A stretch of DNA of 62,709 bases, filler included, from Collodictyon triciliatum (taxonomy: Eukaryota), in assembly GCA_043381765.1 (NCBI GenBank). It is 7 parts of 7 records of this genome, joined end to end, with 100 filler letters (N's around TTAATTAATTAA, not from the genome) between each part and the next. Parts side by side here need not be neighbours in the genome. Positions count along the whole stretch, not along the records: positions 10,938 to 21,763 come from JBHJMP010002553.1; 6 more parts are not named here. One strand, written 5' to 3'. Position 1 is the first letter of the stretch. Every line of letters begins with the position of its first letter. The notes beneath the pieces are model-generated. The model was not told the origin of the DNA. It saw nothing but the letters and a program-made list of their open reading frames with translations, and ran no database searches. This document shows, one piece after another, positions 11,467 to 13,394 of the stretch. The position numbers were made by a program, and so were the translations under genes.

Positions 11467-13394
11467 ATGAAGAAAAGAAAACGTCTTGAGTCTGAGAATC
11501 TAATGTCTTTAAAACCACACTATCGAAATCTGAAAACATGTCTAAAGTCGATTGTAAAGAATGCAGATGACTATTACAAAATCAACGGTACGGTTTTATT
11601 GTGTCATAATTCGGTTACCGACACTTATCTGTTTCCAAGATGTTACACATTGAAATCACAACTCCCAAAAATCAATGAAAGTTTTTTTTTGTACGCTTTA
11701 AAGACAGTCGGAATAGTTTTACAAGATAGACCCGCAAGTTTAAAAAATCCAGGTTTGAGAGACGACATGATGGCTTTTTATCTCAATGATTTTCGATTCC
11801 TTTTGTCCCGAGAAGAACGCTTTCCGTTGGTTGGATTGTCTCGTGTACCACCTACTTGGCGAAGCGAATGTTAACAGCTTATCATAATAACATTAAGGAC
11901 ATTTGGTAAAGAGGTTTCTGCACTTTATAAACCAAACAGTTCCTAAAGATGAGAATATGACGGAAGCTATTCAAAAGGCACAGTTACGAAAGTTAAAAAA
12001 AAAAGCCATCTTCAAGAAACTCGAAATACCAGAACAATATAAAGAATGGGCTACAATCCATTTGCATCGTATCATTCCCAGCGATATTGTAAATGGTATC
12101 GAATATGACGCCAAAGTCAATCCAAATAAGTACACTCCATCTCTGATTTACATTAATCGCATTTTTGAAGACATTTGAGCCAACCTGTTTCAACCAATCT
12201 CTATAAGAACTAATTATGTACTATGGTATATTACTCTAGATACTGCATATTTGAAAGGTCTATTAGTATTATTTGTAAAAACATAATTAAAGAAGAATAT
12301 ATCAGGATGCAAAGAGATACTATGGGATAAGTTTTTTGAAATGAAGAAGAGGGTCTTCCATCATAGAGACTATAATTTTAAATACATGATACAAACAAGC
12401 GGCTTGGCGGGTCATTATTGTTTGTAAAGAAAGGTATTTCAAATTCAAAATCCAATATAATCAGAAGACCCAAGAATATGTTTATACAGATGAACTTTCC
12501 GAAAGCGGTTATCTTTATTAGCGACAAAAATTATAGTTGTGGACGCAGGCAAGTTTAATTTTGTTTACATGGCGGATAGGACAGATAAGAAATTACGTTA
12601 CATGGAACACCAAACAAGGCACAATAACAAATCTCTTAAAAATTATAAAATACTCTTGCACGAAATAGAAGAAAAGTACAATACTTCAGGGATATGCATG
12701 GCAACAGATTTACAAAGTGCTTTTTCTTATGGTCATATAACCTTTGAAGAGAATCAGCAGTTTGAGGCATCAAGAGTATCTATAATCGATTTAGAGACAG
12801 AACTGAGTAAATATAATTCATGCACGGTCGATTATGAAAAGTTTCTAGAATATGTATCTATGAAATCAAGATACCAGATAGAATTATCCAGATTTTATGA
12901 ACAAGTAACTTTTCGACAGATGATATGGAGACAGCATGTTAACACAAAAAGAAGTGAACAATTGTTTATGGACCGAATCGAAAAGACATTTGGCAAGGAT
13001 GTTGTACTGGTGTATGGAGACTGGAGCAGAAAATCTCAGATGAAACATTTTATGCCGACAATCGAAAGAGGATTACGAAAAATATTATCCAAACGTTTTG
13101 AAACAGTTAGTGTAAATGGATTTTGAACCTCCAAGATGTTTTGTAACTGCGAAAAAGAACTGGAGTATATGACACCGAAAGGAAATACAAAAAAGGTTGT
13201 ATAGATGCCTCATATGTAAAGAATGCAATCGCTCAGAAAGCAAAAAAAGTGTATTCTTGACAAGAGACTTAAATAGCGCTAATGATACACTCAGCAAAGT
13301 TCTTTTAATCCTTCAAAATATGCCTACACCTTTCTTTAAAAAACAGGCTGTTGGGTCATTCCTGGCAGTCTTCGCCACTACACTGCCTTTCTGA
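11467..13394 (+). pseudogene. Fanzor1 (TnpB-like RuvC nuclease), ~640 codons, frameshifted
   Basis: N-terminus MKKRKRL..LKTCLKSIV; RuvC-I VVDAGK (D 12542-12544); IIDLETELSKYNS; KRSEQLFMDRIEKTFGKDVVLVYGDWS; RuvC-II damaged (VNGF*); zinc finger CKEC; RuvC-III TRDLNSA (D 13266-13268). Confidence 0.92.

What the first reader, a model, noticed from the sequence alone, without database searches (positions are those of the whole stretch)
11467..13394. A dispersed Fanzor1 (RNA-guided nuclease) family whose intact ancestor can be rebuilt from two complementary broken copies
Seen: two colinear copies (3034-5040 and 11467-13394) on different contigs, with lesions mostly at different sites. Copy 1 keeps RuvC-II NEFRT and the CCNC knuckle, where copy 2 reads NGF*. 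Copy 2 keeps long open stretches and YGDWS. The merged protein is ~640 aa with RuvC D/E/D and a C4 zinc finger. Both copies have DAG rather than the usual DPG, and NSAND rather than NAAxN, so these are family traits. Known: Fanzor1 proteins are eukaryotic TnpB/Cas12 relatives guided by omegaRNA. Inference: this is a lineage-specific, once-mobile programmable-nuclease family, and intact copies may exist elsewhere in the genome.
Basis: partly seen in the sequence, partly recalled or inferred. Interest (0 to 1): 0.9.

Follow-up and report, generated by a model that had tools for sequence, protein, structure and literature searches.

The report
Two dead Fanzor1 nuclease gene copies
These are two decayed copies of a jumping-gene-borne, RNA-guided DNA cutter of a well-known eukaryotic type (Fanzor1), so the find is real but ordinary, and neither copy can work any more.

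Summary
Two colinear repeat units lie on different assembly pieces: 2618-5058 and 11007-13413. They are 87% identical, and each carries a broken reading frame of about 640 codons. A profile of the frame's relatives matches the three solved Fanzor1 proteins over nearly full length (E 1e-79 to 1e-95). A model of the closest intact relative superposes on SpuFz1 at TM 0.73-0.80, against 0.23 for Fanzor2. So the Fanzor1 assignment is supported.

Both copies are pseudogenes. Copy 2 has about 6 frameshifts and 3 stops, and copy 1 about 16 lesions; none is shared. They diverged almost neutrally (dN/dS 0.81). Each has since been hit by a retroposon tail.

Contigs of four public runs show a high-copy family of mixed ages. 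No intact copy could be shown.

The proposed rebuild from two copies is only partly sound. 170 of 604 comparable residues differ, and three highly conserved positions are changed in both copies. DAG and NSAND are private to this lineage: 45 and 44 of 46 relatives keep P and N.

Intact relatives abound in giant-virus contigs. The scan has already reported Fanzor1 elements on other DNA. This is a new member of a known kind, of low interest.

The parts
11007..13413 (+). Copy 2 of the repeat unit (5' non-coding part, broken Fanzor1 frame, about 20 nt behind the stop)
   Evidence: blastn to copy 1 and global alignment at 87.4%. Summed depth of laid contigs falls from about 100 (13331-13413) to 0-9 (13414-13470).
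11467..13394 (+). Copy 2 Fanzor1 pseudogene: ATG 11467, stop 13392-13394; 6 frameshifts (about 11848, 11898, 12410, 12439, 12504, 13199) and 3 stops (12176 TGA, 12284 TAA, 13124 TGA)
   Evidence: Frameshift-aware alignment to P0151, 370 of 622 aligned residues identical.
11007..11466 (+). Copy 2 5' non-coding part, shared with copy 1 (2618-3032); function unknown, presumably left end, promoter or 5' UTR
   Evidence: 82-89% identity to copy 1. No protein family hit and no likeness to 80 relatives' loci.
11333..11379 (+). Very short retroposon-tail insertion (…CACTTTGAATCGAATAAAGG + poly-A) flanked by the direct repeat ATTATTAAATTGAC; absent from copy 1
   Evidence: 46-nt gap in copy 1. The same tail occurs at 22231-22260, 41338-41364(-) and 44535-44560.
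12542..12547 (+). Copy 2 RuvC-I Asp (GAC) followed by Ala where relatives have Pro
13016..13018 (+). Copy 2 Gly of YGDWS (the Fanzor1-conserved Gly; by inference the old RuvC-II strand)
   Evidence: Bao and Jurka 2013 (passage).
13118..13126 (+). Copy 2 G-F-stop where relatives have E-F-R: catalytic Glu lost (GGA), followed by TGA
   Evidence: This Glu is invariant in 46 of 46 relatives.
13139..13226 (+). Copy 2 zinc-finger region: first Cys changed to Phe (TTT), Cys 13148, frameshift at about 13199, then CKEC 13215-13226
13263..13286 (+). Copy 2 RuvC-III R-D-L-N-S-A-N-D: Asp 13266-13268 kept, last Asn changed to Asp
13345..13371 (+). 11-bp hairpin in the last codons, with stems identical in both copies (copy 1: 4992-5018); candidate part of a guide-RNA scaffold, unproven
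   Evidence: No covariation, and the whole 3' region folds no better than shuffles (z -0.74).
10938..11012 (+). 3' tail with poly-A of a second retroposon-like repeat, abutting the 5' edge of copy 2
   Evidence: The same tail occurs at 26859-26911(-) and inside copy 1 at 4058-4095.
2618..5058 (+). Copy 1 of the repeat unit
3033..5040 (+). Copy 1 Fanzor1 pseudogene: ATG 3033-3035 followed by a 5-nt deletion; about 16 disabling lesions in all
Evidence: 379 of 621 aligned residues identical to P0151.
4034..4105 (+). Retroposon-tail insertion inside copy 1, flanked by the direct repeat ATCAATAAAGGC
   Evidence: 71-nt gap in copy 2; matches 10964-11000 and 26862-26898.
4188..4193 (+). Copy 1 RuvC-I Asp (GAT) + Ala
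4765..4797 (+). Copy 1 E-F-R-T-P-K-M-C-C-N-C: catalytic Glu (GAA) and first zinc knuckle kept; Ser of the TS pair changed to Pro
4908..4931 (+). Copy 1 RuvC-III R-D-Y-N-S-A-N-D

Best explanation
Both stretches are dead copies of one roughly 2.4-kb repeat unit. Its only gene was a Fanzor1, a eukaryotic TnpB-like nuclease guided by an RNA.

When intact (inferred). The protein of about 640 aa began with a basic, NLS-like MKKRKR. It would have bound an omega RNA transcribed from the 3' end of the element. It would have cut DNA matching the guide with a RuvC site made of three residues: the Asp of V-D-[PA]-G, the Glu of N-E-F-R-T-S, and the Asp of R-D-x-N. A CxxC…CxxC zinc finger sits between the last two. 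This mechanism is inferred from family membership and was not tested here.

Now (shown). Neither copy can make the protein. Since they split, the two copies have drifted almost neutrally, in coding and non-coding parts alike. Each has been hit by short retroposon-tail insertions. They belong to a high-copy family of mixed ages.

What moved the unit is unknown. No transposase and no terminal inverted repeats were found.
For: Family.
- The 210-aa open stretch 12494-13126 has 1331 relatives at E<=0.001, many of 620-690 aa.
- A profile of 26 of these relatives hits PpFz1 (8.7e-96), SpuFz1 (2.5e-91) and GtFz1 (4.4e-79) nearly end to end. The next hit is at 8.5e-4.
- The window's own stretch alone hits PpFz1 at 2.3e-6 and SpuFz1 at 3.1e-3.
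- The closest intact relative is P0151, 648 aa, 64% identical to the stretch. It aligns to both copies from residue 1 to 633.
- The model of P0151 (pLDDT 86.1, pTM 0.84) matches SpuFz1 at TM 0.73-0.80, with E about 5e-27. Fanzor2 comes at rank 29 (TMq 0.23) and TnpB at rank 42.
- 17 of 46 relatives match Pfam PF07282.

Decay.
- Lesions are listed. The stops are a mix of TGA and TAA, so no single recoding opens the frame.
- dN/dS is 0.81 (0.61-1.10), and differences per codon position are 85/107/98.
- Identity is even along the unit, at 82-90%. The non-coding 5' part is no more diverged than the coding part.
- Retroposon insertions with target duplications lie in both copies.
- A 3765-nt host frame in the same window is open. 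The frameshifts are therefore not a general assembly fault.

Family size. 442, 449, 144 and 78 contig pieces of four runs lie on copy 2 at 80% likeness or more. In run X1 they split 63/117/148/114 across the likeness bands >=99, 95-99, 90-95 and <90%. Some pieces carry an extra base at copy 2's frameshift sites 12410, 12503 and 11899.
Against: - No guide RNA was shown. Rfam gave no match in the window.
- The 3' 206 nt fold no better than shuffles (z -0.74; 42 of 200 shuffles fold at least as well). The two-sequence alignment gives 2 double changes in 37 pairs, which is not evidence.
- The window's own fragments reach Pfam TnpB models only below threshold: OrfB_IS605 E 0.015 and Cas12f1-like_TNB E 0.01.
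- P0151 itself matches no Pfam family in the local copy.
- The fold evidence is for a relative about 60% identical, not for the window's own broken protein.
- The 5' edge is uncertain, because copy 2 abuts a retroposon tail 70 nt from the start of its contig.
- The 3' edge is either about 13413 (blastn, contig depth) or about 13465 (a weak alignment ending in TCTAGT in both copies).
Confidence: 0.9

Rival explanations
1. The copies are remnants of giant-virus DNA that entered the host genome, and not a cellular transposon family. On this reading the Fanzor1 unit came in with, or from, a viral Tc1/mariner-type element.
For: Every related locus with DNA context that I fetched is of this kind, but none is close: identities are 37-47%.
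- 261 of 283 pattern matches in IMG/VR encode relatives, and many of the 80 kept carry giant-virus MAG names on contigs up to 289 kb.
- L002 lies beside ribonucleotide reductase, a glycosyltransferase and DUF5755.
- 22 of 80 metagenome loci have a DDE_3 transposase just upstream.
- Bao and Jurka 2013 proposed spread by viruses (passage).
Against: - Hundreds of contig pieces of graded likeness in runs X1 and X6 indicate amplification within a cellular genome.
- The two copies have unrelated flanks.
- No DDE_3 remnant lies in the window; the best tblastn E is 0.14.
- Both copies were hit by the host's retroposons.
- The closest relative, P0151 (about 60% identical), is of unknown origin.
- This rival concerns the origin only. 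It does not contradict the reading as decayed Fanzor1.
Confidence: 0.1
2. One or both loci are live genes, and the apparent breaks are introns, recoding, an unusual genetic code or assembly errors.
For: - Copy 2 keeps its ATG, its stop and open stretches of 140 and 210 codons.
- Some contigs of other runs carry an extra base at three of its frameshift sites. This would also be seen if the assembly had dropped bases.
Against: - There are 9 and about 16 breaks, at different sites in the two copies. They are indels of 1, 2, 4 or 5 nt, mostly outside homopolymers.
- The stops are both TGA and TAA.
- The invariant catalytic Glu is Gly in copy 2.
- dN/dS is 0.81, with equal change at all three codon positions.
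- A 1254-codon host frame nearby is open under the standard code.
Confidence: 0.03
3. It is a Fanzor2 or a bacterial or organellar TnpB (IS607 or IS605 type), and not a Fanzor1.
For: It shares the RuvC and zinc-ribbon core. There are weak Pfam hits to OrfB_IS605 and Cas12f1-like_TNB.
Against: - At the sequence level only Fanzor1 chains score (E 1e-79 or better). No chain named Fanzor2 or TnpB is among the 7 chains at E<=1, the weakest of which (9j09, E 0.29) is named only 'Transposase'.
- At the fold level, TM is 0.73-0.80 to SpuFz1, against 0.23 to mimivirus Fanzor2 and 0.26 to TnpB.
- The length is about 640 aa, with a long N-terminal helical part aligned to Fanzor1 from residue 7-12 on.
Confidence: 0.01

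Closest known systems
SpuFz1 (SPu-1-1p) of Spizellomyces punctatus; also PpFz1 and GtFz1, the solved Fanzor1 nucleases (PDB 8gkh, 9ceu-9cez, 9cf0-3, 9cer-t)
   Same: The family profile aligns over nearly the full length. The fold of the closest intact relative matches at TM 0.73-0.80. The same Asp, Glu, zinc-finger and Arg-Asp order is present.
   Different: Foldseek identity of the P0151 model to these chains is only 18-20%. The window's copies are broken. Both carry Ala for the Pro behind the RuvC-I Asp and Asp for the last Asn of the RuvC-III motif. No omega RNA was shown here.
Tc1/mariner-type Fanzor1 elements of algal giant viruses (PGv-1, Mariner-2_PGv, Mariner-1_OLpv; Bao and Jurka 2013, PMC3627910, passages seen)
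   Same: The nearest loci with DNA context are intact Fanzor1 genes in giant-virus contigs. 22 of 80 metagenome loci have a DDE_3 transposase upstream. In 21 of them conservation ends about 80 nt behind the stop. This short tail is like the window's 20-70 nt.
   Different: Protein identity is only 37-47%. The window has no transposase remnant and no inverted terminal repeats. Its 5' 460 nt has no likeness to those loci. The window's copies sit in a cellular-looking genome with retroposons and microsatellites.
CMe-1A, an old transposase-less Fanzor1 family (Bao and Jurka 2013, passage seen)
   Same: Both are old, transposase-less, multi-copy families whose members are about 80% alike.
   Different: The paper reports that some CMe-1A copies still encode intact protein. 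Here both copies seen are broken and no intact copy could be shown.

Membership tests
Fanzor1 | C-terminal motif D-X(125,275)-[TS]-[TS]-X-X-[C4 zinc finger]-X(5,50)-RD (Bao and Jurka 2013, passage) | tested here: met
   Read through the breaks against P0151, all elements come in order in both copies. Each copy has lost some: copy 2 lacks the first Cys (Phe), and copy 1 has TP for TS. Between them every element is present.
Fanzor1 | The two extra residues conserved in Fanzor1 (G500 and E536 of Bao and Jurka's figure): the Gly of YGDWS and the Glu before TS | tested here: met
   Gly is kept in both copies (13016-13018, 4663-4665). Glu is kept in copy 1 (GAA, 4765-4767) and is Gly in copy 2 (GGA, 13118-13120). 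Both are invariant in 46 of 46 relatives. That these are the paper's G500 and E536 is my inference from the motif order.
Fanzor1 | Groups with Fanzor1 and not with Fanzor2 or TnpB | tested here: met
   The profile scores E 1e-79 to 1e-95 against the three solved Fanzor1 proteins only. Fold TM is 0.73-0.80 to SpuFz1, against 0.23 to Fanzor2. No tree was built, because the solved sequences could not be handed to the tree tool.
Fanzor1 | Loss of the canonical RuvC-II Glu, with an alternative Glu some 45 residues downstream (Jiang et al. 2023, PMC10530073, passage) | tested here: inconclusive
   The invariant Glu lies 34 residues behind the Gly of YGDWS (P0151 G521, E555). That fits, but equating YGDWS with the old RuvC-II strand is my inference. 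No structural superposition of catalytic residues was available.
Fanzor1 | An omega RNA encoded at the 3' end of the element, up to its right end | tested here: inconclusive
   There is no Rfam match. The fold z-score is -0.74. One hairpin has identical stems in both copies, without covariation. No RNA holder was listed among the runs.
Fanzor1 | Carried by a eukaryotic transposon (Mariner, Helitron, hAT, Sola, IS4, MuDR and others) | tested here: inconclusive
   A multi-copy dispersed unit is shown. No transposase, inverted terminal repeat or shared target duplication was found. The CTAG+T at 13465 and 5112 resembles a Helitron 3' end, but contig depth has already fallen by 13414.
Fanzor1 | RNA-guided, TAM-dependent DNA cleavage | not testable with these tools
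   This needs biochemistry. In any case both copies here are broken.
Fanzor2 / IS607-type TnpB | Sequence and fold nearest to Fanzor2 or TnpB | tested here: not met
   No chain named Fanzor2 or TnpB is among the 7 chains at E<=1. Mimivirus Fanzor2 is at rank 29 with TMq 0.23, and TnpB at rank 42.

The most novel reading that the evidence does not exclude
The family may still be alive in the source organism or its close kin. Some contig pieces in runs X1 and X6 are 99% or more like copy 2, and others lack its frameshifts. So an intact master copy may exist, and it might carry the unusual V-D-A-G and N-S-A-N-D variants next to two catalytic Asp residues. That would be a working cellular Fanzor1 of the subfamily otherwise seen in giant viruses. 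Its right end would lie only about 20-80 nt behind the stop, so nearly the whole guide-RNA scaffold would be embedded in coding sequence.
Probability: 0.25. Interest if true: 0.45.

Novelty: new member of a known kind. Interest (0 to 1): 0.22.

Why it matters
It matters little by itself. Fanzor1 genes and their decayed copies in eukaryotic genomes have been described since 2013. Their RNA-guided activity was shown in 2023, and hundreds of intact natural relatives of this subfamily are available.

Two points have modest value:
- A high-copy cellular family has nearest contextualised relatives on mariner-type elements of freshwater giant viruses. This adds a data point for exchange between viruses and hosts.
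- If an intact copy with the Ala and Asp variants exists, it would test how much change the residues next to the RuvC aspartates tolerate.

Tried and rejected
- **Whole-genome search for intact copies.** No genome is held for this window.
- **Sequencing runs.** No run holds more than 12% of the sampled words, and no RNA holder is listed. Laid contigs gave listed pieces of only 150-451 nt, so no full-length copy can be shown or excluded. The stop-codon sites were not among the rows printed.
- **Terminal inverted repeats.** None was found among 118 weak pairs.
- **Helitron-like ends.** CTAG+T lies at about 13465 and 5112, and TC at the 5' edge. I rejected this as unsupported, because contig depth and blastn end at about 13413 and the base before the 5' TC differs between the copies.
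- **A small partner gene upstream of the Fanzor frame**, a lead from earlier scan notes. No family hit and no likeness to 80 relatives' loci was found.
- **Mariner-type end in copy 2's 46-nt insertion.** It proved to be a retroposon tail with target duplication.
- **A transposase near the copies.** tblastn with the DDE_3 protein of L002 found nothing; the best E is 0.14.
- **Guide-RNA evidence.** There is no Rfam match, the fold is not better than shuffles, and identity is not raised at the 3' end.
- **Host identity.** The Atlas look-up of a host protein said only 'eukaryote'.
- **Earlier notes of the scan.** There are none for this genome.
- **Pfam on the window's fragments.** Only sub-threshold hits were found.
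- **Consensus or mended protein.** None was built. The remote tools take only unaltered sequences, and two copies are too few.
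Full report
**What the window is.** The 62.7-kb window is a chain of pieces of about 10.8 kb, joined by 44N + TTAATTAATTAA + 44N spacers. It looks eukaryotic. GC is about 35%. It has (CT)n microsatellites and poly-A retroposon tails with target duplications. A 1254-codon open frame encodes WD40 and ephrin-receptor-like repeats, and its nearest Atlas clusters are eukaryotic. 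No whole genome is held, and the scan has no earlier notes for this genome.

**The observation.**
- blastn of 11000-13999 against the window finds one other copy, in two blocks. These are 11007-12463 vs 2618-4033 (82.4%, 1478 columns) and 12465-13413 vs 4106-5058 (87.1%, 958 columns).
- The break between the blocks is a 71-nt insertion in copy 1.
- A global alignment gives 2044 matches and 296 mismatches, 87.4%.

**What it is.**
- The longest open stretch (12494-13126, 210 aa) has 1331 relatives at E<=0.001 among 1.84 billion representatives: 445 at <=1e-10 and 3 at <=1e-30. Many are 620-690 aa long.
- A profile of 26 full-length relatives (A1) was searched against all solved chains. It hits Parasitella Fanzor1 (8.7e-96), Spizellomyces Fanzor1 (2.5e-91, one stretch covering profile positions 7-601) and Guillardia Fanzor1 (4.4e-79). 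The other four of the seven hits at E<=1 are at 8.5e-4 or weaker.
- The window's own stretch alone hits PpFz1 at 2.3e-6 and SpuFz1 at 3.1e-3.
- A word-based search for longer proteins found P0151, an intact 648-aa protein 64% identical to the stretch.
- The AlphaFold model of P0151, made with 46 aligned sequences, has pLDDT 86.1 and pTM 0.84.
- Foldseek places that model on SpuFz1 (E 4.8e-27 to 9.8e-26, TM 0.73-0.80), PpFz1 and GtFz1. Cas12 and Cas12f chains follow from 1.5e-6 on. Mimivirus Fanzor2 is at rank 29 (TMq 0.23) and TnpB at rank 42.
- Pfam's zinc-ribbon model PF07282 matches 17 of 46 relatives. The window's own fragments reach it and OrfB_IS605 only below threshold.
- The 2013 motif of Bao and Jurka is D…[TS][TS]-x-x-C4…RD, plus a conserved Gly and Glu (passage). 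It is present in order.
This is a Fanzor1.

**State of the copies.** I aligned P0151 to each copy with a dynamic programme that allows frameshifts.
- Copy 2 aligns from its ATG (11467) to residue 633, with 370 of 622 residues identical. It has 6 frameshifts and 3 stops (TGA, TAA, TGA).
- Copy 1 aligns with 379 of 621 residues identical. It has 9 frameshifts and 7 stops. One of those 'stops' is an out-of-frame reading of the ATG, which is followed by a 5-nt deletion.
- No two lesions coincide. The neighbouring TAA codons at 12284 and 3857 are separate point changes.
- Most frameshift sites are not in homopolymers. A 3.7-kb host frame nearby is intact. General assembly error is therefore unlikely.
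- Copy 2 has lost the invariant Glu (GGA) and the first zinc-finger Cys. Copy 1 has lost the Ser of the TS pair.

**How they diverged.**
- Over 612 shared codons dS is 0.206 and dN is 0.166. dN/dS is 0.81 (bootstrap 0.61-1.10).
- Differences are spread 85/107/98 over the three codon positions.
- Identity is even along the unit, at 82-90% per 150 columns. The non-coding 5' part (87-89%) is no more diverged than the coding part, and the 3' end is not better kept.
- So nearly all the divergence is neutral, and both copies have been dead for most of the time since their split.
- Each was later hit by a 5'-truncated retroposon tail with target duplication. One lies at 4034-4105 in copy 1 and one at 11333-11379 in copy 2. 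A third tail abuts copy 2's 5' edge at 10938-11012.

**Can the ancestor be rebuilt from these two copies?** Only an open mosaic frame can.
- Of 604 comparable residues, 170 differ. P0151 sides with copy 1 at 59, with copy 2 at 51, and with neither at 60.
- Of 55 columns where 80% or more of 46 relatives agree, both copies keep 39, only copy 1 keeps 5, only copy 2 keeps 8, and neither keeps 3.
- Those three are Pro to Ala behind the RuvC-I Asp, Asn to Asp at the end of the RuvC-III motif, and a Glu that is Asp in one copy and Asn in the other.
- P0151 has DPG and NSANN.

**A dispersed family.** No run holds more than 12% of the sampled words. I laid contigs of four runs at 80% likeness or more.
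- The numbers of pieces were 442 (X1), 449 (X6), 144 (X2) and 78 (X8). X2 and X8 are freshwater metagenomes.
- In X1 the pieces split 63/117/148/114 across the likeness bands >=99, 95-99, 90-95 and <90%.
- Some pieces carry an extra base at copy 2's frameshift sites. At 12410 it is +T, in 6 contigs of X1 and at 9.6 of 9.6 depth in X8. At 12503 it is +G, at 87.7 of 146.4 depth in X1 and 69.5 of 69.5 in X6. At 11899 it is +G, in a minority.
- Summed depth falls from about 100 to 0-9 behind 13413, in agreement with the blastn end.
- The longest pieces listed are 150-451 nt, so no intact copy can be shown or excluded.

**Relatives and carrier.**
- In JGI metagenomes 381 of 597 pattern matches encode relatives; the best 80 are 37-47% identical.
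- In IMG/VR 261 of 283 matches do, many on giant-virus MAG contigs.
- L002 (254 kb) has ribonucleotide reductase and other genes around the Fanzor1, and a DDE_3/HTH transposase just upstream on the other strand. 22 of 80 metagenome loci have such a transposase, and the window has none.
- In 21 of these loci, picked for full flanks, all frames are open (616-634 aa). Conservation stops about 80 nt behind the stop, at …AAAGGTGTA.
- This agrees with earlier scan notes on giant-virus Fanzor1 mariner elements and with Bao and Jurka 2013.
- In the window I found no inverted terminal repeats and no upstream small gene. The 5' edge is uncertain because of the abutting retroposon tail. The carrier remains unknown.

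**Guide RNA.** Published work places the omega RNA at the right end of the element, sometimes overlapping the last codons (Saito et al. 2023, passages; Jiang et al. 2023, passages). Here the right end lies 20-70 nt behind the stop, so a scaffold would overlap the coding end. I found no support beyond one hairpin (13345-13371 and 4992-5018) whose stems are identical in both copies. The fold z-score is -0.74 and Rfam gives nothing.

**Papers.** I saw passages of PMC3627910, PMC10432273 and PMC10530073. For PMC11832414 I saw only the search listing and the start of the abstract. The role of TnpB-type nucleases in keeping their transposon at the donor site is recalled and comes from no call.

**Verdict.** These are two long-dead copies of a known kind of element, and the proposed resurrection from two copies is weaker than claimed.

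Noticed in passing
window 11333-11379, 22231-22260, 41338-41364 (-), 44535-44560: A retroposon-like 3' tail (…CTTTGAATCGAATAAAGG + poly-A) occurs four times. Two are very short 5'-truncated insertions flanked by 14-16-nt target duplications (ATTATTAAATTGAC; AATTCCAAACTCCGGA). This suggests a LINE or SINE family that was active after the Fanzor copies died.
   Followed up: partly
window 10938-11012, 26859-26911 (-), 4058-4095, 24661-24692 (-), 25988-26013 (-): A second poly-A-tailed repeat end (…CTCGGTCCTGCACAAAATTGAAAGGAAGAATAAAAA). The copy inside Fanzor copy 1 is flanked by the 12-nt duplication ATCAATAAAGGC.
   Followed up: partly
window 28791-32555 (+): An uninterrupted 1254-codon frame with seven WD40 repeats followed by about ten ephrin-receptor-like cysteine repeats. 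It is an apparently intron-less host gene, and its nearest Atlas clusters are eukaryotic (algae, haptophytes, some giant viruses).
   Followed up: partly
window 38820-40871 (-) and 46424-48481 (+): Two long open frames (683 and 685 codons) with no Pfam match. The second lies in a stretch of clearly higher GC (45-47% against about 35%).
   Followed up: no
window about 2097-2531 (+): A tandem repeat just upstream of copy 1. In one frame it reads as repeated SFLYLFFIFSL units.
   Followed up: no
L002 3638-4678 (-) and 5001-6905 (+); 21 further loci: In giant-virus contigs the related intact Fanzor1 gene often sits back to back with an HTH + DDE_3 (Tc1/mariner-type) transposase (22 of 80 loci). 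In 21 loci examined, conservation ends about 80 nt behind the Fanzor stop at …AAAGGTGTA, which is presumably the inverted-repeat end.
   Followed up: partly
window 5343-5728, 37609-38154, 42562-43110: N runs of 386-549 nt inside pieces. These are assembly gaps, distinct from the 44-N spacers that join the pieces. The first lies about 285 nt downstream of copy 1.
   Followed up: no
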